Assembly: GCA_964016885.1 (NCBI GenBank)
Contig: OZ024762.1
Coordinates: 14,508,001-14,572,000, forward strand
DNA length: 64,000 nt
Reading direction: 5' to 3'
DNA from: Eledone cirrhosa
Lineage: Eukaryota
The notes beneath the pieces were generated by a model. The model did not search any database, was not told the origin of the DNA, and saw nothing but the letters and a program-made list of their open reading frames with translations. Positions 10,899 to 40,450 of the stretch are shown here, piece by piece. A program made the translations under genes and the position numbers. Position 1 is the first letter of the stretch; each line of letters starts with the position of its first letter.

Positions 10899-11246
10899 CC
10901 TCAAAGCAATCTGTTTCTGCTTCCTCTTCTGTTCGTACTGCACCTCGTCTTTAACCAATTGCTCCAGCTTCTTCTCCACCTCCAGAGTTTCCCTCTCCTT
11001 CAGTTCCATCTGTCTCAGTTTCTTCTCCTCCCCCTTCGATATCTGCTCGCGCAGCTTCACGGCACCCATGTGCCTCGCTATCTTACGGGAGTTCGCGATT
11101 TCCTCCTGCACCAGAATGGCATTCTTCCGATCAATCTCCATCATCTGGTCCAGCCTCATCTCCTCCAATTCTGCATCTTTTTTTATCTTTTTCTTCTCCT
11201 CCAGTTGAGCATCTCTGATCGCATGGCACTTTGCTTCCTGAATCAC
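10899..11246 (-). CDS. CFAP45: CFAP45 (CCDC19) coding exon 5
   Basis: VIQEAKCHAIRDAQLEEKKKIKK...EEMRLDQMMEIDR matches the CFAP45 motif AKCHAIRDAQILEK...RLDQMMEVER as I recall it. Acceptor ctgacag, donor AGG|gtaagt, 348 bp, phase 0/0. Confidence 0.95.
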
Positions 11247-11366
11247 CTGTCAGGTGGTAGTTAGAAGGTGACATGTATTATTACTGTTTATAGCAGATAT
11301 CTGGCTACTCAGCCGTTGATATGCATAAGGTAAGTATATACGTTCAACAATCTGGCAGGAAGGTAT

Positions 11367-11409
11367 ACGTTGCTGATGATAGTTAATAAGCTTGAAACTA
11401 GTACAGCGT
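11367..11409 (+). ncRNA. Minimal type I hammerhead ribozyme
   Basis: acgttg CTGATGA t-agtt-aata-agct-t GAAA ctag TA cagcgt: stem I, intact core, palindromic stem III (ACTAGT), GUA triplet. Confidence 0.85.
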
Positions 11410-11786
11410 TCCTTTGTCAGTGTTGAACAAACGAGCAACGATGGTTGCTAGACACTACGGCTTAATACGGGATGTTTGTTTACAAACACACCAAGCATTA
11501 TAATAAATGTTCGGTGAATCCATACGTACATATATATATGTGTGCATGTATGTATGTATATATACATACTACTGTACGTCTGTATACATATATGTATGTA
11601 CGTGTACATACTTATATTTAAGTAACAGCCGTACTAAGAGTGGGAAATGAAATTTTGTTTCATTTTTTCCGTTTATCGTTTTCGGTGCACCCGGCCGATT
11701 GACCCACTCGATATACAGATTGGGCTACTCAGCCGTTAATATGCATAAGGTAAGTATATACGTTCAACAATCTGGCAGGAAGGTAT

Positions 11787-11829
11787 ACGTTGCTGACGAT
11801 AGCTAATAAGCTTGAAGCTAGTACAGCGT
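11787..11829 (+). ncRNA. Second hammerhead copy (GAAG variant)
   Basis: acgttg CTGACGA t-agct-aata-agct-t GAAG ctag TA cagcgt. The A15.1>G change probably impairs activity. Confidence 0.65.
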
Positions 11830-12032
11830 TCCTTTGTCAGTGTTGAACAAACGAGCAACGATGGTTGCTAGACACTACGGCTTAATACGGTATGTTTGTT
11901 TACAAACACACCGAGCATTATAATAAATGTTCGGTGAATCAATACGTACATATATATATGTGTGCATGTATGTATATATATATACATACTACTGTACGTC
12001 TGTATACATATATGTATGTATGTGTACAAACT

Positions 12033-12817
<785 letters not shown>

Positions 12818-12969
12818 TAGATTTTGAGTATATGTTGGTTGTATACCAACACCTCAGTATGCAGGCTGGAGCACTCGACGAAGTGCGCAGGTTGGTTTGG
12901 TTACTCCGGAGTAATGTAAAATAAAGTTAAATAAAAAGTCAAATGTTTAAAATTTAGCTTCGTTTATTA

Positions 12970-13022
12970 CTGCTATATATATTTCAGTGACAGCCATCTT
13001 TGGCTGTGACCTCTTCAGGCAG
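12970..13022 (-). ncRNA. Minimal type I hammerhead ribozyme, sense within a CFAP45 intron
   Basis: Minus strand: ctgc CTGAAGA ggtcacagcc-aaagat-ggctgtcact GAAA tatata TA gcag. Confidence 0.8.
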
Positions 13023-13323
13023 TCTGAATTAGTGTGGTATAGACAAGTACATATGTTGTTGAGGTGTTTAATATTGTCAATACTCTGATATGCCCAGTTC
13101 CTGGTTGGGTTCTTATTTCACTGAGTAACTGGAATCGTAAGATTCCAGTTCCTCAGTGAAATAACAACCCAACCATACTTATATATATATATACATATAT
13201 ATACATATATATATATATACATATATATACATATATATATATATATATACATATATATGCATTTGCATTCTTTATTCTATGTTCATACCTGCATTGTTTT
13301 GGCTTTATTATACATATACAAAT

Positions 13324-13384
<61 letters not shown>

Positions 13385-13459
13385 CACACACATATATAAA
13401 TATATATATATATATATATACACACATACATATATATATATAAATATATATATATACAC

Positions 13460-13501
<42 letters not shown>

Positions 13502-13636
13502 ATATGTATATATGTACACACATATATCTATATAAATATATATATACATACACACATATATATATATATATGTATATGTGTGTGTATGTATATATATATA
13601 CATATACATGTGTGTGTGTGTGTGTGAAAAATATAT

Positions 13637-13667
<31 letters not shown>

Positions 13668-13672
13668 CTCAC

Positions 13673-13843
13673 CCCATTCAGGTGTTTTATTTTATCTTCC
13701 TCCTCTTTACGTCTCTCGTTTGCCTTTTCCCGGAGGTTCTCAGCATTTAATTTCGCCTCCATGTCAAAGTCACACAGTATCTTATCAGACTCACGTTGTT
13801 TGTCGAGTTTTCTCATTCTTGCTTCACGTTCAAGTCGTTGTTG
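13673..13843 (-). CDS. CFAP45: CFAP45 coding exon 4
   Basis: [14 protein letters not shown]...[21 protein letters not shown] is coiled-coil-like and collinear with CFAP45. Acceptor aaaacag, donor GGG|gtgagt, 171 bp, phase 0/0. Confidence 0.92.
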
Positions 13844-13859
13844 CTGTTTTAGCAAAGAG

Positions 13860-14660
13860 AATAATAATAATGAAAATATTGTGTACAGTGCTCAGGTGCA
13901 CTACAACTCATCAAAAGTGTATGTATAGTACATAGGGTAATGTACAAACATCAGGAAAATGAACAGTGCATGAAATGAGTCATGATATACACATGTGTGC
14001 ATGTGTATGGAAGCGGGACATCAGGTGTAGTTTTGGCGTATTTCGGGAAGCATGAGGGTTTTAAATGATGCAGTGTCTCGACAGCTAACAACTGACGCAG
14101 GCAGTTTGTTCCATGGAGGTTTTAAAGGATGCAGTGTCTCGGCAGCTAACAACTGACGCAGGTAGTTTGTTCTATGGAGGTTTTAAAGGATGCAGTGACT
14201 CGACAGCTAACAACTGACGCAGGTAGTTTGTTCTATGGAGGTTTTAAAGGATGCAGTGTCTCGACAGCTAACAACTGACGCAGGTAGTTTGTTCCATGCT
14301 TCAGCAACTCTAAGCGTGAAAATATGTTTCCGAAAGTCATGGGAGCTGTGCTGTTTTCTGACTTTGTAGGCATGTCCACGTGTGTTAGACACATGGAGAT
14401 GAAAAAGGTGCTCAGGGTTGTTGTTGGGGTGATGGTTAATAACTTTGGGGGTGTTTACCACGTCCATTGCCAGACGGCGGAGCTTCAATGAATCTATGCC
14501 CAGGGAAGCAAAGCGTTCAGAGTATGGTAGGTGTCTGATGGAGGGTATGCGCTTGGTTGCACGTCTCTGAACAATTTCCAGGAGGTCAATGATCTGATCA
14601 AGATAGGGGTTCCAGACTGATGATGCGAATTCCAAGTGTGGTCGTACCATACAGCTTTAA
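13860..14660 (-). mobile_element. CR1-clade LINE 3' fragment (ORF2 C-terminus, 3' UTR, (ATT)n tail)
   Basis: [15 protein letters not shown]...LEIVQRRATKRIP...LPYSER...LKLRRL...AEAWNKLP. Internal ~60-bp tandem duplications at 14056-14295; the same tail occurs at 27470-27517. Confidence 0.9.
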
Positions 14661-14693
14661 ATAGATGGCTATATATAGATGGATATATATATA

Positions 14694-14772
<79 letters not shown>

Positions 14773-14799
14773 ATGTATATATATATATGTGTGTGTGTA

Positions 14800-14848
<49 letters not shown>

Positions 14849-14860
14849 GTGTGTGTGTAT

Positions 14861-15442
14861 AATAGTAATATACGCGAACGGCAAAGCATAAATGAATTGA
14901 GAGAGAGACTGAGCATAAGAGGAATCAAAAGCTGTGTGCAGGAGAGGCGGTTGCGTTGGTATGGACATGTGATGCGTATGAAGGATGACAGCTGCATAAA
15001 AAGGTGCAGAGCACTAAAAGTCGATGGAAACTGCGGAGTGGGGAGACCCAAGAAGACCTGGGATGCGGTGATAAAAGCCGACCTTACCCAATTACAGCTC
15101 TCAAAGGCGATGACACACGACCGTGACCTCTGGCGTCACGCAGTAATACAGAGTACCCAACTCCCCATGAGTACAAGCCGAAGCTGAAGCATATAGACAA
15201 TATGCCTCCACACCCTTCCACTGCAAAGTGGTCGTGGAGGTGCCACGGAAAAAAAGCACCCAGCACTCACTGTAAATGAGGTTGGTGTTAGGAAGGGCAT
15301 CCAGCTGTAGAAATCAAGCCAGAATCAGTTCCCGAGCAAGACAAGGTCAGCTGACCGGACACTGCCCACAATAGGACAACCCGTCTAACCCATGCTAGCG
15401 TGGAAGAACGGACGTAAAACGGTGATGATGATGATGATGATG
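14861..15442 (+). mobile_element. RTE-clade LINE 3' fragment with (TGA)n tail
   Basis: [15 protein letters not shown]...GRPKKTW...DRDLWR; the 3' end reads CCCATGCTAGCGTGGAAGAACGGACGTAAAACGG(TGA)n. Confidence 0.92.
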
Positions 15443-15458
15443 AAGATATATGTGTGTG

Positions 15459-15502
<44 letters not shown>

Positions 15503-16126
15503 TGTGTGTGTGTATATATATATATGTGTGTGTGTGTGTATATATATATATATAGTTTTATACTTGGGGAGGGTCATATTGTTATGATATTGCCAGAAAT
15601 AATAACAGAACACACTCACTGTTTGGTTTTGATTGGTTTTTGCTTTTGTATCTTTTATAACCCCATAGTTAATTTAGCTGGCAATCAATGATTATCATTG
15701 ATTGACCAACGGTTAAAATTACAGATATAAATATATTTATATATAGTCTATCAAAGTTCTTTCATCACACATCTGCGACATCATCAGTGGTACTACTACG
15801 TTTCCTTCCATTGTATTGTAATGTCTACGCCATTTTTATTTTATTTATTTATATATATATTTGTTTCTTCTTATATATATCTGTGTGTGTGTGTTCATAT
15901 ATATATGAAAAATTCAGGACCTCGATGGCTGAGCTCCTAACATTTCAACAACTGGATCCGAACTGGTCGGATCTAGCTGTTGAAAAAGCCGCAGCTCAGC
16001 CATCGGGGTCCCAAATCATATTACTCACTCTACTAGTATCGAGTACTCTGGTGAGTAATGGTCTAACTGGTTTTTACTGCATCCATTCTGATTTATATAT
16101 ATATGTGTGTGTATATACATATATAT

Positions 16127-16231
16127 ACAGGGTGTATACACCAAAATTGTATACACACATTTATTACCTGTAGAGGCAATATTTATTAGAATGCTGTTGA
16201 AGTATGTCTACATATTTTGGGACACCCTGTA
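16127..16231. mobile_element. ~100-bp Tc1/mariner-type MITE
   Basis: TA-CAGGGTGT...ACACCCTG-TA termini; related copies at 54990-55091 and 27399-27455. Confidence 0.7.
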
Positions 16232-16311
16232 TATATATATATATCATCATCATCATCATCATCATCATCATTTTACGTCCGCTTTTCCCTGCTTGCAAGG
16301 GTGGGATGGGT

Positions 16312-16345
<34 letters not shown>

Positions 16346-16646
16346 AATATATTACACAGAGAGAAGTGTGTTACACAGTGAGATGTGTGTAAAAAATTAT
16401 TACACGTGAGTTTTACCGTTACTGTATGGAGAACAATACCTACAAGTTAGCAATTAAATAGTAAAAAACTAAGTCAGAATCAAATCTCTGAAGTAGAGTT
16501 TTGTAATCATTTTTTACACACATCTCACTGTGTAACACACTTCTCTCTGTGTAATATATTTGTATTTGAGCTCAGATGAAAATTCTCTGTTCTTCTTCGA
16601 GCTAGTATTATTACTGTGAACTGCAGAATACTTTAATTCTGATCTT

Positions 16647-16711
<65 letters not shown>

Positions 16712-17115
16712 GTATATATATTGCCCCTTTCGGTACCAAACCCCTTGAAACTACCCCCTAGTTCTACAATACAAAACTGTTTATTTTAAAGTGTTTATAT
16801 TTATCTAAAAACCTTCCATCATAATTTTATGTTAAGTTAACCTTTGTTAAGTTATGTTCCAAACACCAGCTTAATCCTTTTTAATACTAAACCGTCTAGT
16901 TCTACAATACAAAGAGAGGTCAGTCGCTCTGCTTGAGTTACAGACTCGGTCAAGAAGATCTGTCAAACCCTTCCTATATATGTCTCAAACCATGAGTTAG
17001 ATGTAAACTGCCAGTGGCCTATAACAATTGACCAACAGCTGACCAATAAATGGATTTTCATGATTGTTATGTTATAATTACAGTTTCAATGAGTCCAAAA
17101 CGAGAGGAACAATCT

Positions 17116-17304
17116 GTGAAGGCACATGGCTTAGTGGTTAGAGCATTGGGCTTGCAATCGAAAGGTTATGTGTTCAATTCTTGGACCGGGTGATGTGTTG
17201 TTTCCTTGAGCAAGACACTTTATTTCACGTTGCTCCAGTTTACTCAGCTGAAGAAATGAGATGATAGGACTGGGGTCTCTATCATTAAATCACCCAAGAC
17301 ATAC

Positions 17305-17375
<71 letters not shown>

Positions 17376-17590
17376 GGCACATGGTTAGAGCATTGGGCTT
17401 GCAATCGAAAGGTTGTGAGTTCAATTCTCGGACGGGGTGATGTGTTGTTTCCTTGAGCAAGACACTTTATATCACGTTGCTCCAGTTTACTCAGCTGAAG
17501 AAATGAGATGATAGGGACTGGGGTCCCTATCATTAAATTACCCAAGACACCTCCATACCTTGGAGGAGGCCAGCTAAACCTGCATAGGTG
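17116..17590 (+). mobile_element. Two tRNA-derived CORE-type SINE copies
   Basis: A box TGGCTTAGTGG, B box GTTCAATTC, CORE-like TCCTTGAGCAAGACACTT. Relatives on the minus strand at 33300-33735, 34110-34230, 41860-42027, 50915-51132 and 55985-56197. Confidence 0.85.
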
Positions 17591-17665
17591 TGAGCTGTCA
17601 CACACACACACGCACACACACACACAATAAATGGATGCCATAGAATTGTGTCAAAGACCACTTAC

Positions 17666-17810
17666 CATGTCTCTTTCTTGTCTCTGTCTAAATTCATTTT
17701 CCAGCAGGGACTTCTCGTGGTTAGTAAGGAACTTGGCTCGCTCTTTCATCCTCATGAACTCGTGTGTGTCCAATACAACAGGGGAATTCTGTGGGTCTTT
17801 ATTTTGTACC
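17666..17810 (-). CDS. CFAP45: CFAP45 coding exon 3
   Basis: VQNKDPQNSPVVLDTHEFMRMKERAKFLTNHEK resembles human VPTEDPSGESLIISPEEFERIKWASHVLTREE (recalled). Acceptor catttcag, donor ATG|gtaagt, 145 bp, phase 2/0. Confidence 0.92.
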
Positions 17811-17819
17811 CTGAAATGG

Positions 17820-18055
17820 TGGAAGAGGGAGATTGCAGGAGAGGGAAGACCATGGAATAAGACCAATGCAGGAACTCAGTGGTCTTCTGGGAGCGGCTAC
17901 ACAGACACACTGGAAGTGGGAAACTGAGGATTACACATGTTGATGCCCTAATGACAGACACTGGTCTCTGGGAGGTGTGGGACATGGCAGCAATGATGAA
18001 GGACAGGGACCGCTGGAGAGAACTCGTCCAGGGATCTCAGGAATTTTACCCGCCA
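17820..18055 (+). mobile_element. Second RTE-family 3' fragment, abutting the exon 3 acceptor
   Basis: VFWERLHRHTGSGK.RITHVDAL..DTGL.....AAMMKDRDRWR; a related copy lies at 31015-31222 (-). Confidence 0.7.
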
Positions 18056-18061
18056 TATATA

Positions 18062-19190
18062 TCATCATCATCATCATCACCGTTTTACGTCCGTTCTTCC
18101 ACGCTAGCATGGGTTAGACGGGTTGTCCTGTTGTGGGCAGTGTCTGGTCGGCTGACCATGCCTTGCTCATACAGGAACTGATCTGGCTTGATTTCTACAG
18201 CTGGATGCCCTTCCTAACACCAACCTCATTTACAGTGAGTGCTGGGTGCTTTTTCGTGGCGCCTACACATCCACTTTACAGTGTGGGCTGGGTGCTTTTT
18301 TGCCGTGGCACCTCCACGACCACCTTGCGGTGGGGGGAGTGGGGGCATATTGTTTATATGCTTCAGCATGTACCCATGGGAGGTCGGGTACCCTGTATGT
18401 ATATATATATATGGCGGGTAAAAAACAAGGAGGTTATATCCATAGTAAGTAGAGCACTAAGCCCATAGGATGAGTTTGGTATAGAGTTGGTTGCACAACA
18501 TGTTAGCAAACCATACTCGAGGATGTGCATTTCATCCAACGGATTCTCAACTATATATACATCATCATCATCATCGTTTAACGTCTATTGTCCACGCTAG
18601 CATGGGTTAAACGGGAGTTGTCCCACTTGAGGCAAGATTGGTCGGGTGACCGTGTCTCGCTCGTACAGGACTATCTGGCAGGTTTTTACGGCTGGATGCC
18701 CTCCCTAACACCAACCACATTTTCAGTGTGGACTGGGAGCCTTTTACCATGTTACCTAGGCGACCACATTACAGCGTGGACTGTGTGTGTTTTTTTGTCA
18801 TGACACCTACACGACCTCATTAGTTTGGACTGGCTGTTGTGGTACCAACATAACTTTACAGAGAAAGGGTGGTGTTGGTGGGAGTGAAAGGATGGAGTAG
18901 GGGTAGTGGATTGGGGTGTATGTTAGGTTTTGAGGTGCCTACTGACTGTAGGTTAACTTTGCACGTAGGGAAGACAGGTCTTAGTATTACTGCGTGACGC
19001 CAGAGATCTCGGTCCAGTGACATTGTCTAAGAGAAGTGCAAGTGTGCAAGGTTGGAATTTATCATGTCATCCCAGGTTTTTCTGGATCTACCTACTCCGT
19101 AACTCCCATCAATTTTGATCGCCCTGCACTTTTTTATACAGCTGTCGTCTTTCATGCACGTCATGTGACCGTACCAACGTAATCTTCTGG
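18062..19190 (-). mobile_element. Two RTE 3' fragments
   Basis: (TCA)n tails at 18062 and 18560 are each followed by the reverse complement of the RTE 3' UTR; ORF remnant at 18960-19188. Confidence 0.85.
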
Positions 19191-19280
19191 AAAAGCTTGA
19201 AGAGGCACAAGTTGAAACTACTTCAGCCCACAGTGGAGTCTCTACTTCATTAATATATACATATATATATATGTGTGTGT

Positions 19281-19407
<127 letters not shown>

Positions 19408-19412
19408 TATAT

Positions 19413-19723
19413 AAAGAAAAAGAGATGAAATCGAAAATGCAACTGGAGTCTTATTTTTTAAAAAAATATATATATTTATTTGGTTCCTTTACCGGTTTCG
19501 CAGTTCTTCTGCTTTTCAAAAGGTGAGTTGAGATGGAGGGTCTGTGGTTTTTCTCACATCCGAGTGGTGTTGGTGGGAGTGAGAAAAACCACAGACCCTC
19601 CATCTCAACTCTCCTTTTGAAATGCAGAAGAACTGCGAAACCGGTAAAGGAACCAAATAAATATATATATTTTTTTTAAAAATAAGACTCCAGTTGCATT
19701 TTCGATTTCATCTCTTTTTCTTT
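19413..19723. repeat. Palindrome (~145-bp arms, 21-bp spacer) with a hammerhead variant in each arm
   Basis: The arms are near-perfect reverse complements. Hammerhead folds at 19486-19523 (-) and 19613-19650 (+). Confidence 0.93.
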
Positions 19724-19808
19724 CTACTTTCACTCGTGTAGGACATCTCGGTTATTTTTCATTTTGTAAAAAAAACCTCACTTTCTAATATATATATATA
19801 TATATATA

Positions 19809-21207
19809 TCATCATCATCATCATCATCAGGTTTAGCGTCCGTGTTCCACGCTTGCATGGGTTTGGACGGGGGTTTTCCCACTTGAGGCAAGAGTGGTGG
19901 TCTTGCTCGCATAGGACTGTCTGGCGGGTTTTCTACAGTTGGATGCCCTTCCTAACACCAACCACATTTACAGTGTGGGGCTGGGAGGTTTTTACCGTGT
20001 TGCCTACACGGCCACATTACAGCGTGGACTGTCTGGCAGGTTTTCTACAGCTGGATGCCCTTCCTAACACCAACCACATTTACAGTGTGGGGCTGGGAGG
20101 TTTTTACCGTGTTGCCTACACGGCCACATTTACAGCGTGGACTGTGTGTTTTTTGTCGTGACACCTACACGATCTCATTTGTTTCGGCCTGGATGTTGTG
20201 GGACCAACATAACTTTACATTGAAAGGGGCGGTGTGGGTGGGGTGGAGGTGGTGGGACGGGGGTGTGTTTTGATAGAGGTGCCTACTGACTGTAGTAGGT
20301 TTTTACTTTGTATTTAGGTAAGGCGGGTCTTCTCTATTACTGAGTACCGCCAAAGGTCTCGGTCCAGTGACATTGTCTTGGAGAGGTGTAAGCGTGTGAG
20401 GTCGGAATTTATCAGCTCGTCCCATGTTTTTCTGGGTCTGCCTACTCCGTGGCTACCGTCTATCTTTATTGCCCTGCACTTTGTTATACAGCTGTCGTCT
20501 TTCATGCGCATCACGTGACCGTACCAACGTAGCCTTCTCTCGAGTAAACAACATCTGATCCCTCTTATTTCTAATTTTTTCCTTAGTTCGTTTATGCTTT
20601 GCCGTTCACGTATATTACTATTGCACATCCAGCGGAGCATGCAAGCTTCGTTCCTCTCTAGTCTGCGTATATCCTCTGCACACAATGCCCAGGTCTCACT
20701 GCCATGCAGCATTGCTGTTCGTATGCAGGCATCGTATAACCTGCCTTTCATTTTTAGGGAGAACCCTCTAGCGGCTAATAGTGGTATAAGCTCTCTGAAC
20801 TTTTTCCATCCAGTTCTGACTCTAGCTACTGTACTTTCAGAGCACCCTCCCCCACTGCTGATTTTGTCACCCAGATAACGGAAGCTGTCCACTATTTCTA
20901 TAGAACCCTCTGCGCAGTTGAAGGAGCTAGTATTTTGTGGGCACTTGCTGCTACTTATTGCACCAGAGCACCGGCCACATGTAAAATCTATGTTCTTAGT
21001 TAGCTTACTGTGATCCCACTACATCTTTTATGCACCCATACTTTGCATTTGGGACATAAAATGGAGTTTCTACCTACGCCTTTCCTACACACTGAGCATG
21101 GCCATTTCCCCGATGGGACCGCCGCCTTATTTTCTTTCCTACAAACTAGAACTTTAGTCTTAGCCAGGTTAATTTTAAGGCCTTTTGATTCTAGGCCGTG
21201 CTTCCAC
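19809..21207 (-). mobile_element. 5'-truncated RTE LINE: RT C-terminal part with inserted PHD-like finger, frameshifted
   Basis: GLKINLAKTKV...CSVC...CPKC..WVHKRC...CGRC...FRYLG...LHGSETW...RRLRWYGHV; the 3' UTR has an internal duplication and a (TGA)n tail. Confidence 0.93.
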
Positions 21208-21516
21208 GTATATATATATATATATATATATATGATGATGATGGCTGCAACTTGATTTCAAGTAATGCCATCGCTTGATACTTAACCATGAGCATCACAG
21301 ACGTGGCTTTTTAGTCCTGCTAAGGACTTGCCTATGGCCAGCAATACGATGCATCACAAACAAATGTCACATATCAAGCGATGCCTGTGCATGGGGCCAA
21401 TCCCACTCTCTGAACATTGAATACATTTGCCCAAAAAGAAGAATTGGTCTACATCATTGGATGCAAACGAAGTCGCAGGTTTTATATCAGGATGACTTTC
21501 TCCTAAAGATATATAT

Positions 21517-22186
21517 ATCATCATCATCATCATCATCGTTTAACGTCCATTTTCCACGCTAGCATGGGTCTGGACGGGAATTGTCCCACTTGAGGCAAGA
21601 TTGGTTTCTTGCTCGTATAGGACTGTCTGGCGGGTTTTCTACGGCTGGATGCCCTTCCTAACACCAACCACGTTTACAGTGTGGGGCTGGGAGGTTTTTA
21701 CCGTGTTACCTACACAACCACATTACAGCATGGACTGTGTGTTTTTTTGTCGTGACACCTACACGACCTCATTTATTTAGGACTGGATATTGTGGTACCA
21801 ACATAGCTTTACATCGAAAGGGGTGGTGTCGATGGTGGTGGGGGTAGGGTTGGGACGGGGGTGTATTTTGGTTAAGAGGTGCCTACTGACTGTAGGTTTC
21901 GCTTTGTACTTAGGCAAGGTGGGTCTTCTGTATTACTACGTAGCGCCAAAGATCTCGGTCCAGTGACATTGTCTTGGAGAGGTGTAAGTGTGTGAGGTCG
22001 GATTTTATCAAGTCGTCCCACGTTTTTCTCTGTCTGCCTACTCCGTGGCTACCGTCTATTTTGATCGCCCTGCACTTTTTTATACAGCTGTCGTCTTTCA
22101 TGCGCATCACGTGACCATACCAACGTAGTCTTCTCGCGAGTAAACAGCATCTGATCCCTCTTATTCCTAATTTCTCACTTAGTTCA
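21517..22186 (-). mobile_element. RTE 3' fragment
   Basis: Closely similar to 19809-20590. Confidence 0.9.
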
Positions 22187-22502
22187 TATATATATATATA
22201 TATATATAAGAATTATAAGAGCCTACTTGTATAAGTATCTGTTGATCTTATACAAGCTTCTACATAACTTGGTATATTTTCACCCAACTTGTAGAAATCT
22301 TATAATGAAACGAGTCGTCTGGGAAATGATATATTTGATATATCTCATACAAAATAATACAGTCAATTATCCACACAATACAATATAGTTAGCACCCCAA
22401 ATGTTTAATTGGGAATATACTGAGGTATTTCCTAATGTTTGTTGAGTGAGTTGGAATTTGGCCGGAGTATCGCTATTAGCTTTCTCCGTTTATGTATTTA
22501 TA

Positions 22503-23376
22503 CAGAAGACCCCACTTCCCACGGGTACAAGCCAAACCTGAAGCATATAGAAAATATGACCCCACCCCCTCCCACTGCAAAGTGGTCGTGGAGGTGCCAC
22601 GGCAAAAAAGGCACCCAACACTCACTGTAAATGACGTTGGTGTTAGGAAGGGCATCCAGCTGTAGAAATCATGCCAGAATCAGTTCCAGTGTGAGCAAGG
22701 CATGGTCAGCCGACCGGACACTGCTCACAACAGGACAACCCGTCTAACCCATGCTAGCGTGGAAGAACGGACGTAAAATGGTGATGATGATGATGATGAC
22801 TGAAGTAAGAGTTAAGTGGCAATATCCAAGAGTAAGAGCACTCAGTCCATAGGACGAGTATAGTATAAATAATTTCAACAGTGGCATAAACAGGTACTCA
22901 AGTTTCGTTGGGTTCTGGGCCCCAATTCGTCACTGTTGTAATTATTTATATATATCATCATCATCATCATCATCATCACCGTTTTACGTCCGTTCTTCCA
23001 CACTAACATGGGTTAGACGGGTTGTCCTGTTGTTGGCAGTGTCCGGTCGGCTGACCTTGTCTTGCTCATACGGGAACTGATTCTGGCTTGATTTCTACAG
23101 CTGGATGCCCTTCCTAACACCAACCTCATTTACAGTGAGTGCTGGGTGCTTTTTTTCTGTGGCGCCTACACGTCCACTTTACAGTGGAATGATAGGCACC
23201 CCTCATATATATATATATATATATATATAAAAGCACCTGGCACACACTGCAAATGTGGTTGGCTTTAAGAAGGGCATCCAGCTGCAGAAACCTAACCAGA
23301 AACAGTCATGTATGAGTAAGACAAAGTCAAATGGGACAACACGGTAACTCATGCTAGTATAGAAAATGGACGTTAA
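22503..23376. mobile_element. Cluster of RTE 3'-UTR fragments in both orientations
   Basis: 22503-22799 (+), 22955-23187 (-) and 23232-23376 (+) share GGAAGGGCATCCAGCTG and the tail motif. Confidence 0.8.
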
Positions 23377-23870
23377 ATAATTGTTTCTACTTTGGGCACA
23401 AGGCCAGCAATTATCCCAGTGTATTACTGGTATTTTATTTTATCGACCTCGTAAGGATGAAAGGCAAAGTTAACCTCGACGGGATTTGAACTCACACCGT
23501 AAAGTGGACGATAAATAATGATGATGATGATGATGTATATACACACACACATCGCACATGTCTACACACACACACACACACACACGTGTCTACATACAGA
23601 CAGACAGACAATATACTAAAGTTTTTCTCTCACCAATTCACAATGCTAGTCCCCCCCCCCTCACTCCCAACCACTATCACCTCCCTGCAAGACAGGGGGG
23701 TGGGACATTACAGAGGTTATGGGACTGTGGGAAGGGCAGTGGGGGAGGGCAGGGGTTATGGGAACCTTGAGGGAACAATGAGAACATGTTTAAGGGGGAG
23801 GAGTAATGTTACAAAGGGAAATGGGACATTTATTGGGGGGGGGGTAGTGGAACAGTAGAGGGAGGGGTAT

Positions 23871-24890
23871 GTGGTGGTGGTGGTGGTGGTGTTGTTGTTG
23901 GTGGATATTGTGGTGGTTGTGGTGGTGGTAGTGGTGGTGTTGGTGATGGTGGTGGTGGTGGTGGTGGTGGTGGTGGTGTTGGTGGTGGTGGATATTGTGG
24001 TGGTTGTGGTGGTGGTAGTGGTGGTGGTGGTGGTGGTGGTGGTGGTGGTGGTAGTGGTGGTGGTGGTGGTGGTGGTAGTAGTGGTGGTGGTATAGTGGTG
24101 GTGGTGGTGGTGGTGGTAGTGGTGGTGGTGGTAGAAGTGTTGGTTGTGATAGTGGTGGTGGTGGTTGTTGTGATGTTGGTGGTGGGGTTGTGGTGGTGGT
24201 GGTGTTGGTGGTGGTGGTGGTGTTTGTGGTAGTGGTGGTGGTGGTTGTGGTGGTGGTTGTAGTGGTGTTGGTGGTTGTGGTGGTTGTGGTTATAGTGGTG
24301 GTGTTTGTGGTGGTGGTTGTAGTGGTGGTGGTGGTGGTGGTAGTGGTGGTGGTTGTGGTAGTGGTGGTGGTGGTTGTAGTGGTGGTGGTGGTTGTGGTTG
24401 TGGTGGTGTTGGTGGTGGTGGTTGTAGTGGTGTTGGTGGAAGTGTTGGTGGTGGTGGTGTTTGTGATGGTGGTGGCGGTGCTGATGGAGGTGATGGTGGT
24501 GGTGGTGGTGGTTGTAGTGGTGGTGTTTGTAGTGGTGGTGGTGTTGAACTAGTAAAGTAGTATCACTAACACCATCTATAGAACCCCCACTACCATCTCA
24601 GCCGTCATCACCATCATCATCACCATCATCATGGCCACTGCCAACACCAACACCACCACCAACACCACCACCACCAACACCAACAGCAACACCACCACCA
24701 CCACCACCACCAACACCAACAGCAACACCACCACCACCACCACCAACACCACCACCACCACCAACACCAACAGCAACACCACCACCACCACCACCACCAC
24801 CAACACCAACAGCAACACCACCACCACCAACACCACAACCTCCACCACCACCACCACCACCACCACCACCACCACCACCACCACCACCAC
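23871..24890. repeat. (GTG)n tract followed by (CAC)n tract
   Basis: The strand switch is at about 24550-24585. Confidence 0.95.
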
Positions 24891-25129
24891 TCTAAACATT
24901 CATTTACCTGTTCTAATTAATACCTTGATTTATTAATTATATGAGAGAAGGAAACAAAACAGAAATAGACAGGTCTGTATCTGTCTGTCTGTCTCTGTGT
25001 ATGTGTGTGTGTGTGTCTGTGAGCGTATGTCTGTGTGTGAGCATATGTGTGTGTGTGTGTGTGTGTGTGTCTGTATCTGCGTCTATCTGTATGTCTGTAT
25101 ATGTGTATGTGGGTGGGTGTATGTCTACA

Positions 25130-25785
25130 TACACACACACAACACACAGCTACACTTCAACACACACTCTCACACTTCCACACACTCACACAGCTACACC
25201 TCCACACACACACAACATACAGTTACATTCCCACACACACACACAACACAGTTACATTTCCACACACACACACAACACACAGCTACACCTCCACACACAC
25301 TTATACATACAACACAACACACACACACACAGCTACACCTCCACACACACACACAACACACAGCTACATCAAGCAACACACCTCTACACACACACACCAC
25401 ACAGCTACACCTCCACACACACTTATACATACAACACAACACACACACACACAGCTACACCTCCACACACACACACAACACACAGCTACATCAAGCAACA
25501 CACCTCCACACACACACAACACACAGCTACACCTCCACACACACTTATACATACAACAAAACACACAGCTACACCTCCACGCACACTTATAAATACAACA
25601 CAACACACACAACACACAGCTACACCTCCACACACAACACACAGCTACACCAAGCTACACCCCTCCACACACACACATACAACACACAGCTACACCTCCA
25701 CACACACACACATACAACACACAGCTACACCTCCACACACACACACACACATACAACACACAGCTACACCTCCACACACACAATA
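25130..25785. repeat. CA-rich compound minisatellite (ACACAGCTACACCTCC core)
   Basis: Repeated core abutting the exon 2 donor. Confidence 0.9.
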
Positions 25786-25799
25786 TACATACAACTCAC

Positions 25800-26083
25800 C
25801 TCAAATTCCTTATTGAGTCCAACATTATAACCTGGATATTGTCATTCTCTTTCTTTCCCTTCGTCTCAGCTTCATTGAAATGACCTGTCCTCTTCCAATT
25901 CTGATTTTCCTGCAGTGCTGAATCAGTTCTCCGGTTACCCTCGTTCCTTCCATTCCTCGGAGCTTTATTACCGAACAACGACTCATCCACATGAGAACAA
26001 TGACTGATTGTCCGGTACTGACGATGGAATCCTTTCTTTGACGAACTAGAATAGCTACTAGAACGGGTCTGGATACTCGTGGG
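25800..26083 (-). CDS. CFAP45: CFAP45 coding exon 2
   Basis: [38 protein letters not shown]...[14 protein letters not shown] matches the CFAP45 N-terminus (YRT...VDESLFG...IQLITRD). Acceptor tccacag, donor AG|gtgagt, 284 bp, phase 0/2, compatible with exon 3. Confidence 0.93.
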
Positions 26084-27743: not shown

Positions 27744-27961
27744 CAATATATAAGCAGTTTTATAAATAAATTTGACGTACCATGAATATTGTTCAACTTC
27801 CATTTAAAAAAGTTGGTATGGTAGTATATATATATATTTGCGTGTGTACACATATATCAAATTTACAGTTCAATATTTTAACATTTAAAACAATAATTAT
27901 TACTAACACTTCATTAAATTTGATGAACTAGTCATAAATATTCTTTTTCTGTTTAACTTAC

Positions 27962-27964
27962 CAT
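27962..27964 (-). CDS. CFAP45: Putative CFAP45 first coding exon (initiator ATG only)
   Basis: Minus strand reads CAAACA-ATG|gtaagt in unique sequence. Splicing in phase 0 to exon 2 gives M-P-T-S, like human M-P-L-S. An X-box lies ~65 bp upstream. Confidence 0.75.
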
Positions 27965-28029
27965 TGTTTGTGAAACTTCAACAAATTATTTCCTTTCGAT
28001 GTTGCTAAAATAAAATTTAGTGTTCTCCG

Positions 28030-28043
28030 GCTGTCATGACAAC
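28030..28043. promoter_or_regulatory. RFX X-box-like motif in the CFAP45 promoter/5' region
   Basis: GCTGTCATGACAAC is one mismatch from the palindrome GTTGTCATGACAAC; a half-site GTTGCTA lies at 28001. Ciliary genes are established RFX targets. Confidence 0.65.
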
Positions 28044-34231: not shown

Positions 34232-34848
34232 CAGAGTACAAGACTTCCCCCTGGACAGGATGGCAGTCCATCGCAGGGTTAAAGTCGTCTCAAGCCAGTG
34301 TTTATCTCAGTTTCATTGCGTGAAGTGACTGAGAGTACAAGACTCCCCCTGGACAGGATACCAGTCCATCGCAGGGTTAAAGTTGTCTCAAGCCAGTGTT
34401 TATCTCAGTTTCATGGCGTGAAGTGACTGAGAGTACAAGACTCCCCCTGGACAGGATACCAGTCCATCGCAGAGTTAAAGTCGTCTCAAGCCAGTGTTTA
34501 TCTCAGTTTCATTGCATGAAGCGACTGAGAGTACAAGACTCCCCCTGGACAGGATGGCAGTCCATCGCAGGGTTAAAGTTGTCTCAAGCCAGTGTTTATC
34601 TCAGTTTCATAGCGTGAAGTGACTGAGAGTACAAGACTCCCCCTGGACAGGATGGCAGTCCATCGCAGGGTTAAAGTCGTCTCAAGCCAGTGTTTATCTC
34701 AGTTTCATAGCGTGAAGTGACTGAGAGTACAAGACTCCCCCTGGACAGGATACCAGTCCATCGCAGGGTTAAAGTCGTCTCAAGCCAGTGTTTATCTCAG
34801 TTTCATTGCGTGAAGTGACTGAGAGTACAAGGCTCCCCCCTGGACAGG
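34232..34848. repeat. 98-bp minisatellite (~6.3 copies) derived from the adjacent SINE tail
   Basis: GAGTACAAGACTCCCCCTGGACAGGA recurs at a ~98-bp period; the same motif is in the SINE at 33950-34110. Confidence 0.92.
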
Positions 34849-35011
34849 AAGATGAATGTAGACATACACATGTGATAACAACAACAACAACAACAACATC
34901 CACAAAAACAATTTTATTTGAACATAAGGAAATAATGGTAAAAGGGGGGGGGGGTTCTATGAAGAGGAGAACAAAGACTGAAAAGATGGTGTCAAACCCA
35001 GAAGATATTTT

Positions 35012-35096
35012 GGAATTATCTTTTAGATGAATGTTTACCCGGTGATGACCTTGAAAATACATTGACCAGGGTAAACTTCACCTAAGGGATAACCAA
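35012..35096 (-). ncRNA. mir-36: miR-36 family precursor hairpin; predicted mature 3p UCACCGGGUAAACAUUCAUCUA (35045-35024)
   Basis: Seed CACCGGG plus the UAAACAUUCAU body typical of lophotrochozoan miR-36 (recalled). The 5' arm UAGGUGAAGUUUACCCUGGUCA pairs with it, and the basal stem extends (UUAUC/GAUAA). Confidence 0.88.
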
Positions 35097-35119
35097 TAAA
35101 CTGGATATTTCTCATCAGG

Positions 35120-35146
35120 TGTGTATGTATATATATACATATATAT

Positions 35147-35177
<31 letters not shown>

Positions 35178-38100
35178 CATACACGCGCCTATATATATAA
35201 TTATATAAAATATATATATATATACACACACTTATATATACATACATACACACACCTATATATATAATTATATAAAATATATATATATACACACACTTAT
35301 ATATACATACATACACACACCTATATATATAATTATATAAAATATATATATATACACACACTTATATATACATACATACATACACACGCCTATATATATA
35401 ATTATATAAAATATATATATATACACACACTTATATATACATACATACATACACACGCCTATATATATAATTATATAAAATATATATATATACACACACT
35501 TATATATACATACATACACACCTATATATATAATTATATAAAATATATATATATACACACACTTATATATACATACATACACACACGCGCCTATATATAT
35601 AATTATATAAAATATATATATATACACACACTTATATATACATACATACACACACCTATATATATAATTATATAAAATATATATATATACACACACTTAT
35701 ATATACATACATACACAGACCTATATATATAATTATATAAAATATATATATATACACACACTTATATATACATACATACATACACACGCCTATATATATA
35801 ATTATATAAAATATATATATATACACACTTATATATACATACATACACACACCTATATATATAATTATATAAAATATATATATATACACACACTTATATA
35901 TACATACATACACAGACCTATATATATAATTATATAAAATATATATTTATACACACACTTATATATACATACATACACACGCCTATATATATAATTATAT
36001 AAAATATATATATATACACACACTTATATATACATACATACATACACACACCTATATATATAATTATATAAAATATATATATATACACACACTTATATAT
36101 ACATACATACATACACACGCCTATATATATAATTATATAAAATATATATATATACACACTTATATATACATACATACATACACACACCTATATATATAAT
36201 TATATAAAATATATATATATACACACACTTATATATACATACATACATACACACGCCTATATATATAATTATATAAAATATATATATATACACACACTTA
36301 TATATACATACATACAGACCTATATATATAATTATATAAAATATATATATATACACACACTTATATATACATACATACATACATACACACGCCTATATAT
36401 ATAATTATATAAAATATATATATATACACACACTTATATATACATACATACACAGACCTATATATATAATTATATAAAATATATATATACATACATACAT
36501 ACACACGCCTATATATATAATTATATAAAATATATATATATACACACACTTATATATACATACATACATACACACACCTATATATATAATTATATAAAAA
36601 ATATATATATACACACACTTATATATACATACATACACACACCTATATATATAATTATATAAAATATATATATATGCACACACTTATATATACATACATA
36701 CACAGACCTATATATATAATTATATAAAAAATATATATATACACACACTTATATATACATACATACATACACACGCCTATATATATAATTATATAAAATA
36801 TATATATATACACACACTTATATATACATACATACACACGCTTATATATAATTATATAAAATATATATATATACACACACTTATATATACATACATACAC
36901 ACGCCTATATATATAATTATATAAAATATATATATATACACACACTTATATATACATACATACATACACACGCCTATATATATAATTATATAAAATATAT
37001 ATATATACACACACTTATATATACATACATACATACACACGCCTATATATATAATTATATAAAATATATATATATACACACACTTATATATACATACATA
37101 CATACACACGTCTATATATATAATTATATAAAATATATATATATACACACACTTATATATATACATACATACATACACACGTCTATATATATAATTATAT
37201 AAAATATATATATATACACACACTTATATATACATACATACACACACCTATATATATAATTATATAAAATATATATATATACACACACTTATATATACAT
37301 ACATACATACACACGCCTATATATATAATTATATAAAATATATATATATACACACACTTATATATACATACATACATACACACGCCTATATATATAATTA
37401 TATAAAATATATATATATACACACACTTATATATACATACATACATACACACGTCTATATATATAATTATATAAAATATATATATATACACACACTTATA
37501 TATATACATATATACACACACCTATATATATAATTATATAAAAAATATATATATATACACACTTATATATACATACATACATACACACGCCTATATATAT
37601 AATTATATAAAATATATATATATACACACACTTATATATACATACATACACACACCTATATATATAATTATATAAAATATATATATATACACACACTTAT
37701 ATATACATACATACACACGACTATATATATAATTATATAAAATATATATATATATACACACTTATATATACATACATACATACACACGCCTATATATATA
37801 ATTATATAAAATATATATATATACACACACTTATATATATACATACATACATACATACACACGCCTATATATATAATTATATAAAATATATATATATACA
37901 CACACTTATATATACATACATACATACACACGTCTATATATATAATTATATAAAATATATATATATACACACACTTATATATATACATACATACACACAC
38001 CTATATATATAATTATATAAAATATATATATATACACACACTTATATATACATACATACATACACACACCTATATATATAATTATATAAAATATATATAT

Positions 38101-38515
38101 ATACACACACTTATATATACATACATACATACACACGCCTATATATATAATTATATAAAATATATATATATACACACACTTATATATACATACATACATA
38201 CACACGCCTATATATATAATTATATAAAATATATATATATACACACACTTATATATATACATACATACATACACACGCCTATATATATAATTATATAAAA
38301 TATATATATATACACACACTTATATATATACATACATACACACACCTATATATATAATTATATAAAATATATATATATACACACACTTATATATACATAC
38401 ATACATACACACGTCTATATATATAATTATATAAAATATATATATATACACACACTTATATATATACATACACAGACCTATATATATAATTATATAAAAA
38501 ATATATATATATATA
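35120..38515. repeat. ~60-68 bp compound TA/CA minisatellite, about 50 copies
   Basis: Unit CCTATATATATAATTATATAAAATATATATATATACACACACTTATATATACATACATACACA. Confidence 0.97.
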
Positions 38516-38813
38516 CCCATGCTAGCGTGGAAAATGGACGTTAAACGAAGATGATGAAGATGATGATGATGATGATACACAAGGGTAAGTAAAAAATGTA
38601 ACAGCAGCAAGAAAGTGCAATCCAGCTCAAACTTTTATCACGGGACCACAAAGGTACCAACCATGAGCAAACTTGAGCAGAAGGCAGCGTGACAAACCTA
38701 AAGATATGTTATGGTGAAAGTGGAGATCATTTTTGACTTACTCTCATATAAGCACAAAATGTAGACACCATCCCGAGGCCGAAGTATTTCGTACTTCTCT
38801 GTACTGTTATATA

Positions 38814-39706
38814 CGAGGTGTGTCAGAAAAGTTCCAGGACTGATGTCGCAAAAGATTTATTTCAAACCCAAACTTCACACTAAGAGTTTTTCTCCTTCAA
38901 AGTAATCCCCCTGGAGTATGTAACTGTAATCTTAGCTCTCTGCAGCAATCAAACTGTTTTCTTCATAATTTTATATACATGTCCTCTGTTTCAGGTCGTC
39001 AAGCAATGAGCACAGAGCAACGAACAAACTTGAAAACGCCGTCAGAAGCACTGGGGTTGCTGCAGCAAGTGTATGGAGATGAGACGATGTCACGCTCACG
39101 TGTTTTTGAGTGGTGCAAGAGGTTTAAAGAAGGACGCGAGGACGTGGAAGATGACCCCAAGAGTGGAAGTCCCTCAACAACCAGGACTGAGGTCAACGTT
39201 GAGCGTGTCAGGCAGATGTGCGTAGTGATCGTCAGCTGACTGTTCAACTGATGGCAAATGAGCTGGGCATGAATCGGGACAGCGTCTGGAAGATTCTCAC
39301 TGAAGATTTGGACATGTGGAAAGTCTGCGCGAAGATGGTGCCAAAACTGCTGAACGATGACCAGAAGGGTCGACGCATGCAAGTGTGCCAGGACATCCTC
39401 GAGCGTCTTGAAACCGAACCAGACTTGCTAGGGGACAGTCATCACCGGTGATGAGTCATGGATCTTCGAGTATGACCTGAAGGGGACCCGTTTTGAAGAC
39501 GTGGACGACATCAAAAAGGCCGTGAAGACGGAACTGCGGAGGATCCCTGAAGAATCCTTCCAGGAGTGCATGCAAGCGTGGCAGAAAAGGATCGAAAAGT
39601 GCATTAGACTCCAGGGGGATTACTTTGAAGGAGAAAACTCTTAGTGTGAAGTTTGGGTTTGAAATAAATCTTTTGTGACATCAGTCCTGGAACTTTTCTG
39701 ACCCAC

Positions 39707-39710
<4 letters not shown>
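38814..39710 (+). mobile_element. Internally deleted mariner element with ~100-bp inverted ends
   Basis: TA flanks; transposase remnants MSRSRVFEWCKRFKEGREDVEDDPKSG, AKMVPKLL, ITGDESWIFEYD joined directly to LKGTRF...KCIRLQGDYFE; frameshifts. Confidence 0.93.
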
Positions 39711-39763
<53 letters not shown>

Positions 39764-39768
<5 letters not shown>

Positions 39769-39950
39769 AACGAGTAGGACCCCGACGGCTGAGCTCAAGC
39801 CGTTTCGAGTCCAGAATTAGCTGTCAAAACGGCTTGAGCTCAGCCGTCGGGGTCCTACTCGTTCCTATTACCCACTCTACTACCCTACGTATTGAGTACT
39901 TTGGTGCGTTATGGTCCACCTGGTTCCTTACCACATTTCCTTTGTTATAT
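39764..39950 (+). repeat. Palindrome-headed repeat family carrying a hammerhead 3' half
   Basis: Inverted arms 39764-39868. Family members at 15915-16080, 45681-45900, 45905-46212, 52483-52645, 53118-53200 and 62317-62397. Confidence 0.85.
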
Positions 39951-40032
39951 ATATATATATATTTATTAAAATAAGGATTTATTTATCCTTATCAAGCCCT
40001 CTTTGGATTTTAGTCTTCAAATTTATTATTAT

Positions 40033-40090
<58 letters not shown>

Positions 40091-40364
40091 GTGTACAGAT
40101 ATTGTTGCATACACAATAACAAAATATAAACAAACGTATTTATTTCACGAGGCTCGATGAGGATAAATATATATCAAATATATAAGAACCCGAGGGACAA
40201 TCCCGAGCAACGCCGGGCCATTCTGCTAGTGTATGCTAGCTAAAGGGTTAATGGGTTCGGCCAAATGGTTGCAAAGTGAACTCCTTAACCACACGGCCAC
40301 AAGATGGAGATGATGGTGATGATGATGATGATGTGTTATAACGGGGTAGAAGATGTATGTGGTT

Positions 40365-40450
40365 TGAATTAAGCGAATGAATGTTCACCCGGTGATGCTA
40401 GGGTTCAAGAAACACACCTCCCGGGCAAACATCATCCACCCGAAACAACC
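40365..40450 (-). ncRNA. mir-36: miR-36 family precursor hairpin; predicted mature 3p UCACCGGGUGAACAUUCAUUCG (40395-40374)
   Basis: Same seed as the 35-kb copy; the 5' arm GUGGAUGAUGUUUGCCCGGGAG pairs with the mature arm. Confidence 0.88.

What the first reader, a model, noticed from the sequence alone, without database searches (positions are those of the whole stretch)
35012..40450. Dispersed miR-36 cluster hidden among repeats upstream of CFAP45
Seen: two short unique islands 5.35 kb apart share similarity essentially only in the mature arm (UCACCGGGU[A/G]AACAUUCAU), and each folds into a pre-miRNA-sized hairpin on the minus strand. Established: the miR-36 family (seed CACCGG) is protostome, and nematode miR-35-42 are germline/early-embryo expressed. 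The copies are separated by a 3.4-kb minisatellite and a mariner. Co-expression with the axonemal gene is speculation.
Basis: partly seen in the sequence, partly recalled or inferred. Interest (0 to 1): 0.7.

Follow-up and report, generated by a model that had tools for sequence, protein, structure and literature searches.

The report
Tandem miR-36 pair of a cephalopod
Two hairpins 5.35 kb apart match, copy for copy and in the same order, the two neighbouring miR-36-type microRNAs sequenced in bobtail squid, so they are likely working microRNA genes of an ordinary, already catalogued kind, likely pushed apart by repeats, with no evidence found for a link to the nearby cilia gene.

Summary
Observation confirmed. 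Two minus-strand hairpins carry a 3'-arm 22-23-mer with the MIR-36 seed CACCGG (5' ends 35045 and 40395). Both fold far better than shuffles, with predicted 59- and 65-nt precursors and 2-nt overhangs. The window is likely from a coleoid cephalopod: CFAP45 is 64-66% identical to Octopus proteins.

This is a known arrangement. MirGeneDB 2.1 lists two paralogues (Mir-36-P14, -P15) in two octopuses and Euprymna, and one in Nautilus and oyster. A squid small-RNA table has two such hairpins 807 bp apart on one strand. The downstream one matches HP1's arm 22/22 and the upstream one matches HP2's 22/23, in the same order. A 3.4-kb minisatellite and a 0.9-kb mariner remnant account for 80% of the spacing here.

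CFAP45 starts 7 kb downstream on the same strand, with an X-box-like site beside its ATG; no evidence for co-transcription was found. No RNA run of this species turned up, so expression here is inferred from orthologues. Side lead: miR-279 lies upstream on the same strand in squid and in 2 of 14 other animal loci. Ordinary; low interest.

The parts
35024..35082 (-). HP1, downstream pre-miR-36 copy (predicted 59-nt precursor: 5' arm 35082-35060, loop, 3' arm 35045-35024)
   Evidence: folds with 2-nt 3' overhang, z -4.5; ends predicted from geometry and agree with the squid downstream precursor
35024..35045 (-). Predicted mature miR-36-3p of HP1, 22 nt, seed CACCGG
   Evidence: 22 of 22 identical to the 3' arm of the squid downstream precursor (compared by eye)
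40373..40437 (-). HP2, upstream pre-miR-36 copy (predicted 65-nt precursor: 5' arm 40437-40415, loop, 3' arm 40395-40373)
   Evidence: folds with 2-nt 3' overhang, z -4.0; lies in a low-depth contig with 0 differences, i.e. single-copy-like
40373..40395 (-). Predicted mature miR-36-3p of HP2, 23 nt, seed CACCGG
   Evidence: 22 of 23 identical to the squid upstream mature sequence, differing at position 10 (compared by eye)
35130..38511 (.). AT-rich minisatellite, unit about 69 nt, about 50 copies, 3382 bp
38814..39710 (+). Internally deleted, frameshifted mariner remnant, 897 bp, flanked by TA
   Evidence: inverted repeats, PF17906 HTH_48 E 1.5e-6, ends read
34913..34918 (-). Candidate poly(A) signal 106 nt past HP1, followed by a GU-rich tract; possible end of the primary transcript (inferred)
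   Evidence: 4 such hexamers lie in unmasked minus-strand DNA between 28000 and 35020, so weak
27960..28043 (-). Likely first coding exon of CFAP45 (ATG 27964-27962 directly before a splice donor) with an X-box-like palindrome at 28030-28043
   Evidence: only ATG-plus-donor site upstream of exon 2; exon 2 starts at the residue aligned to residue 2 of O. sinensis CFAP45; motif
10899..26083 (-). CFAP45 coding exons found by similarity (26083-25799, about 17833-17675, 13843-13670, 11249-10899); neighbour, not part of the miRNA locus
   Evidence: tblastn with O. sinensis CFAP45; PF13868; PDB CFAP45 hits

Best explanation
The two hairpins match the tandem miR-36-type pair of squid copy for copy and are likely its orthologues, likely cut from one minus-strand primary transcript into two microRNAs with the same seed. 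Shown: sequence, hairpin geometry, order and one-to-one similarity to the squid pair. Inferred from standard animal microRNA biogenesis: Drosha crops 59- and 65-nt precursors, Dicer releases the duplex, and the 3' strand (5' U, weakly paired end) loads into Argonaute and represses mRNAs with seed matches; the two copies would act redundantly and add dose. Inferred history: a local duplication after the split from Nautilus, then a minisatellite expansion and a mariner insertion stretched the spacer from about 1 kb to 5.35 kb. CFAP45 is likely a separately promoted downstream neighbour.
For: Squid Data Set S1 (PMC8125070): two precursors on scaffold SCSUXZT_338667, plus strand, starts 240282 and 241089, both called by miRDeep2 in two sample types. 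By eye: 3' arms HP2/upstream 22/23 and HP1/downstream 22/22, crosswise only 18/22 and 19/22; 5' arms 17/23 and 16/23 for matched pairs, 13/23 and 11/23 crosswise. MirGeneDB 2.1 Table 2 (PMC8728216): P14 and P15 in O. vulgaris, O. bimaculoides, E. scolopes; single Mir-36 in Nautilus and C. gigas. HP1 versus HP2: 17 of 17 consensus pairs kept, 5 by one-sided and 1 by two-sided change. Metagenome scan: 22 of 46 motif hits pair with the upstream flank at -17 kcal/mol or better, against 1 of 44 with the downstream flank. A model from 14 such hairpins ranks HP2 (48.4 bits) and HP1 (31.1) first, minus above plus (20.7, 17.5). Spacing: 5355 - 3382 - 897 = 1076 bp against 807 bp in squid.
Against: No RNA evidence for this species: of 24 listed runs only 2 hold most of the HP2 stretch, both from one sample and of unrecorded type. 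Rfam mir-36_2 scores are below its cut-off of 46 bits (22.4 and 17.7) and are not the top-scoring family for either hairpin. Optional processing motifs are incomplete: CNNC at +18 only in HP2 (+20 in HP1), no basal UG at -14 in either (canonical positions recalled). The 5' arm is listed as dominant for the squid downstream copy and arm abundance was reversed for oyster Mir-36 (PMC7488030), so 3' arm dominance is not assured. I saw only the names, not the sequences, of P14/P15. A single transcript across both hairpins is not shown.
Confidence: 0.93

Rival explanations
1. The hairpins sit in a long 5' UTR intron of CFAP45, or on a read-through transcript, and are co-expressed with it in ciliated or sperm-forming cells.
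For: Same strand, 7.06 kb upstream of the ATG. A possible splice acceptor lies at 28006-28005 before the ATG, another at about 41072, and a second X-box-like site at 48509-48522. No Pfam hit in 63 ORFs of the unmasked DNA upstream of exon 2, so no other gene is seen in between.
Against: An X-box-like palindrome sits 66-79 nt before the ATG, as a gene-proximal promoter would (pattern fitted after seeing the sites). A candidate poly(A) signal follows HP1. No CFAP45 match in 46 motif loci, but only 1 of the 21 hairpin loci held 7 kb or more downstream, so this is weak. No paper holds both terms.
Confidence: 0.1
2. Both are real microRNA genes, but the repeats have split the cluster, so that each copy is transcribed on its own or one is silent.
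For: 4167 of the 5290 intervening bases are masked as repeat; the mariner and low-complexity tracts could carry start or stop signals.
Against: Both hairpins keep seed, pairing and length, and HP1, the copy downstream of the repeats, is identical to squid across its 3' arm. 5.35 kb is within the 10-kb span usually taken as a cluster (recalled).
Confidence: 0.15
3. The hairpins are palindromic repeat elements or chance folds, not microRNA genes.
For: The window holds many hairpins, some far more stable (13090, 15915, 19524, 47596, 53002); Rfam finds nothing at its cut-offs.
Against: HP2 lies in a contig of depth 4.8 while the flanking repeats reach 1e5. The stems are imperfect with G-U pairs and share mainly one arm. 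Near-identical arms are sequenced as small RNAs in squid and snail (19 of 22 by eye; PMC7328434).
Confidence: 0.02

Closest known systems
MirGeneDB Mir-36-P14 and Mir-36-P15 (O. vulgaris, O. bimaculoides, E. scolopes)
   Same: Two MIR-36 paralogues in a coleoid genome (PMC8728216 supplementary table 2).
   Different: Another species (CFAP45 only 64-66% identical to the two Octopus proteins found). Sequences and coordinates of P14/P15 were not seen, so which hairpin is which is not assigned.
E. scolopes miR_338667_31443 and miR_338667_31446 (PMC8125070 Data Set S1)
   Same: Same two 3' arms (22/23 and 22/22), same order and strand, similar precursor lengths.
   Different: 807 bp apart against 5355 bp here; one change at position 10 of the upstream copy; the 5'-arm seed of the downstream copy differs at 2 of 7 positions. 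The paper lists them as predicted, without a family name; calling them MIR-36 is my inference.
C. elegans miR-35-42 family; flatworm and snail miR-36
   Same: Seed CACCGGG (PMC3653858); clustered, redundant copies; snail miR-36a-3p matches each hairpin at 19 of 22 (by eye).
   Different: Eight members in C. elegans, essential in embryos; two here, with no functional data in any cephalopod found by searches.
Rfam mir-36_2 (RF04298, clan CL00088)
   Same: Matches both hairpins on the minus strand over the whole model.
   Different: 22.4 and 17.7 bits, below the gathering score of 46.

Membership tests
MIR-36 (MirGeneDB) | Seed CACCGG at positions 2-7 of the mature strand | tested here: met
   Both arms; the 5' end is fixed by analogy to the squid mature sequence
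MIR-36 (MirGeneDB) | Seed-bearing strand on the 3' arm, similar beyond the seed to family members | tested here: met
   22/22 and 22/23 to squid; 19/22 to snail miR-36a
Canonical animal pre-miRNA | About 60-nt imperfect hairpin, 16 or more paired bases, 2-nt 3' overhangs, loop of 8-40 nt (criteria recalled) | tested here: met
   59 and 65 nt, loops 14-15 and 19 nt, duplex -22 and -23 kcal/mol
Canonical animal pre-miRNA | Reads from both arms with uniform 5' ends | not testable with these tools
   No RNA run of this species found; orthologues were called by miRDeep2 in squid
Canonical animal pre-miRNA | Processing motifs (basal UG, apical UGU/GUG, 3' CNNC); optional | tested here: inconclusive
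   Apical UGU at 22-24 in both; CNNC at +18 in HP2, +20 in HP1; UG at -13 in HP1, none in place in HP2 (HP2 offsets shifted by one for the 23-nt arm)
Coleoid Mir-36-P14/P15 pair | One-to-one orthology with the two catalogued paralogues | tested here: inconclusive
   One-to-one match and order shown against the squid pair; the MirGeneDB sequences themselves were not seen (names only)
Rfam RF04298 mir-36_2 | Score at or above 46 bits | tested here: not met
   22.4 and 17.7 bits
MITE or palindromic repeat | Many copies, near-perfect inverted repeats | tested here: not met
Intronic miRNA of CFAP45 | Lies between transcribed CFAP45 exons | not testable with these tools
   Upstream of the likely ATG exon; non-coding upstream exons cannot be excluded without RNA

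The most novel reading that the evidence does not exclude
The pair is the tail of an ancient miR-279-to-miR-36 transcript, and its 3' arms are selectively destroyed in adult soma by seed-directed decay, as recalled for the C. elegans miR-35 family. That would explain three things: miR-279 lies upstream on the same strand in squid (33 kb) and in L015 (1.9 kb) and L018 (0.7 kb); miR-36-3p is about 10,000-fold rarer than miR-279 in snail; and the passenger arm outnumbers it in squid and oyster. It predicts a miR-279 hairpin beyond the window's right end on the minus strand. Against it: only 2 of 14 distinct loci show miR-279 in the DNA held, none lies in the 23.6 kb upstream here, and stage-specific transcription explains the counts equally well.
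Probability: 0.15. Interest if true: 0.6.

Novelty: new member of a known kind. Interest (0 to 1): 0.15.

Why it matters
As it stands it adds one more coleoid with the two-copy miR-36 locus and shows that the spacer tolerates a more than six-fold stretch by repeats. That is useful for annotation, since Rfam's cut-off misses both copies, and as a marker of a duplication shared by squid and octopuses but absent from Nautilus. It would matter more if miR-36 proved to be co-transcribed with miR-279 and cleared after processing, because that would carry a nematode decay mechanism across protostomes, or if it shared a ciliary promoter with CFAP45. Neither is shown.

Tried and rejected
Whole genome: none held, so no genome-wide copy count or look beyond the window. 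Rfam at gathering scores: 0 hits in 64 kb; the many weak hits sit on AT/AC repeats. Further miR-36 copies: 8 CACCGG sites in the window, only 2 in a 3' arm; the next model hits at 34841-34912 and 33812-33895 do not fold (z 0.3 and 1.9). miR-279 in the window: no exact seed-extended match. CFAP45 synteny: tblastn with 4 CFAP45 proteins found nothing in 46 loci; 30 ORFs from 10 hairpin loci had no Pfam hit; flanks too short to conclude. MAFFT misregistered the 5' arms, so the 16-sequence consensus has only 9 pairs and I do not use it as covariation evidence. The identity of the window's arms to the 14 metagenome hairpins (18-21 of 22) is largely fixed by the search pattern and is not counted; L002, L004 and L030 were dropped for lacking a clean duplex, and 7 near-duplicate loci were collapsed. 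Zolotarov 2022 (PMC9699675): 'mir-36' absent from main text, PDF supplement and tables, and from the preprint text; its data archive could not be read and may hold coordinates or expression. Oyster supplement had no 'mir-36' row under that spelling. Earlier scan findings: none.
Full report
Observation. The shared motif occurs twice in the window, on the minus strand, with 5' ends at 35045 (HP1) and 40395 (HP2); shuffles give 0.02. The two islands align only over one 21-nt block in a local alignment, score 37 against at most 29 in 300 shuffles, although their 5' arms also share 13 of 22 positions. Both fold as long imperfect hairpins with the motif on the 3' arm (z -5.95 and -4.75). HP1 also folds on the plus strand, HP2 does not. 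Between them lie a 3382-bp minisatellite and an 897-bp mariner remnant with 83-nt inverted repeats and a Mos1 HTH hit. Folding alone is not diagnostic, because the window holds several stronger palindromes.

Organism and neighbour. The minus-strand gene is CFAP45 (PF13868; PDB hits). Its closest named relatives are from Octopus bimaculoides (64%) and O. sinensis (66%), with the next hits at about 50%, so the window is likely from a coleoid cephalopod other than those two. The exon at 26083 begins with the residue aligned to residue 2 of O. sinensis CFAP45. The only ATG directly followed by a donor upstream of it is at 27964, 7.06 kb past HP1, with an X-box-like palindrome at 28030-28043 (consensus recalled, pattern fitted afterwards, so its chance figure is not a fair test). 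The hairpins are thus upstream of the coding gene. None of 63 ORFs in unmasked DNA upstream of exon 2 had a Pfam hit (transposon ORFs left out of that call).

Hairpin anatomy. Predicted precursors are 35082-35024 (59 nt) and 40437-40373 (65 nt), each with a 2-nt 3' overhang. The 3' strands begin with U at a weakly paired end, and the 5' strands begin with a paired G, which would favour loading of the 3' strand (established asymmetry rule, recalled). Between HP1 and HP2, 17 of 17 consensus pairs are kept, 5 through one-sided and 1 through a two-sided change (two sequences only). An apical UGU is in place in both; CNNC and basal UG are only partly in place. In run X1, HP2 lies in one contig with 0 differences at depth 4.8 while adjoining repeats reach 1e5; X1 may be the source of the assembly, so this shows single-copy character, not independent support.

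Family. Rfam mir-36_2 matches both on the minus strand but below its cut-off and not as top score (22.4 and 17.7 bits against 46). A scan of metagenome contigs with the motif gave 46 loci. In 22 of 46 the motif pairs strongly with its upstream flank, against 1 of 44 with the downstream flank; 21 are clean hairpins, 14 distinct. A model from those 14 ranks HP2 and HP1 first in the window and prefers the minus strand (48.4 and 31.1 against 20.7 and 17.5 bits). The motif part of that score is circular; arm placement and strand are not. A snail miR-36a-3p matches each hairpin at 19 of 22 (PMC7328434, passage).

What is known. MirGeneDB 2.1 (PMC8728216; passages and supplement rows) lists Mir-36-P14 and -P15 for O. 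vulgaris, O. bimaculoides and E. scolopes, and one Mir-36 for Nautilus and C. gigas; I saw names only. MirGeneDB 3.0 (PMC11701709, supplement row) places MIR-36 at Protostomia. The decisive item is Data Set S1 of PMC8125070 (supplement rows and passages): two E. scolopes precursors on one scaffold and strand, 807 bp apart, called from small-RNA reads of juvenile light organ and adult haemolymph. Compared by eye, the upstream copy matches HP2 (3' arm 22/23, 5' arm 17/23) and the downstream copy matches HP1 (22/22, 16/23); crosswise matches are lower (18/22 and 19/22; 13/23 and 11/23). Order is conserved, since HP2 is upstream on the minus strand. Removing the minisatellite and mariner leaves 1076 bp, close to the squid spacing. 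The duplication therefore likely predates the split of these lineages, and the dispersal is likely a later repeat effect.

Mechanism. Most likely (0.93 for identity, lower for a single transcript) a minus-strand primary transcript is cropped into two precursors whose 3' arms share one seed and repress the same targets. Processing and expression in this species are inferred: no RNA run held the stretch. Related members are tied to embryos and stem cells: C. elegans miR-35-42 and schistosome eggs (PMC3653858, passages), planarian neoblasts (PMC3854530, passages). But the squid copies appear in somatic samples, the squid downstream copy lists its 5' arm as dominant, and oyster Mir-36 showed reversed arm abundance (PMC7488030, passages). 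The 5'-arm seed differs between HP1 and squid at 2 of 7 positions, which argues against a conserved guide role for that arm.

CFAP45 link. Unsupported but not excluded (0.1). For: same strand, possible acceptors at 28006 and about 41072, and a second X-box-like site at 48509-48522. Against: a gene-proximal X-box-like site, a candidate poly(A) signal 106 nt past HP1, no CFAP45 in 46 loci (weak, flanks short), and no paper with both terms.

Side lead. In squid a miR-279-type hairpin lies 33 kb upstream on the same strand. L015 and L018 have one 1.9 and 0.7 kb upstream; the L018 arm equals snail miR-279-3p. That is 2 of 14 distinct loci, with 51 to 10,001 upstream bases held; L013 (10 kb) and L029 (5.5 kb) show none, nor does the 23.6 kb upstream here. 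Snail table values are 2 and 5 for miR-36a-3p against 50,935 and 35,566 for miR-279-3p (taken as read counts, header not seen). PMC4238352 (section 7 and passages) describes an intergenic lophotrochozoan mir-279 and arthropod clusters joining miR-279 and miR-3/36-like members, but I saw no statement of this molluscan linkage there; one search was the only one aimed at it.

Other papers seen only as passages without bearing: PMC9699675 and its preprint (supplements, one archive unreadable), PMC11067994, PMC10435380, 10.1101/2021.09.01.458616, PMC8915122, 10.64898/2026.09.16.752239. bioRxiv supplements were not seen.

Verdict. Real, correctly identified, and an expected feature of coleoid genomes: new member of a known kind, interest 0.15.

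Noticed in passing
L015:1429 and L018:947 (plus strand); squid scaffold row: miR-279-type hairpins lie upstream of miR-36 on the same strand (1.9 kb, 0.7 kb, and 33 kb in squid); none in the window's 23.6 kb upstream.
   Followed up: partly
window 48509-48522: Near-perfect X-box-like site in a short unmasked island with no gene seen nearby, 8 kb upstream of HP2.
   Followed up: no
window about 41072, minus strand: Pyrimidine-rich splice-acceptor-like site 630 nt upstream of HP2, opening into the low-complexity tract; could be an exon of the primary transcript.
   Followed up: no
window 11373, 45265, 47571, 47700, 57471: Five matches to a recalled hammerhead-core pattern against 0.07 expected, three of them within about 1 kb of a GIY-YIG ORF at 46184-46855, as in Penelope-like elements; Rfam found none at its cut-offs.
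   Followed up: partly
window 13090, 15915, 19524, 39764-39868, 46330, 47596, 53002: Near-perfect palindromes of 80-100 nt; the 39764 type recurs near 45720, 52540 and 53140, so likely MITE-like repeats.
   Followed up: no
window 39442-39451: The mariner remnant between the hairpins holds a 10-base palindrome that contains the miR-36 seed and its match, within the codons of the transposase TGDE motif; it does not fold as a precursor. Likely coincidence.
   Followed up: partly
window 1-10550 and 59479-61216: Large tandem arrays (72-nt unit, 147 copies, inside a CFAP45 intron by position; 71-nt unit).
   Followed up: no
L001/L012, L029/L035, L013/L040: Several related metagenome assemblies hold two different miR-36-type hairpins on separate contigs; whether these are paralogues of one animal or two animals was not examined.
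   Followed up: no
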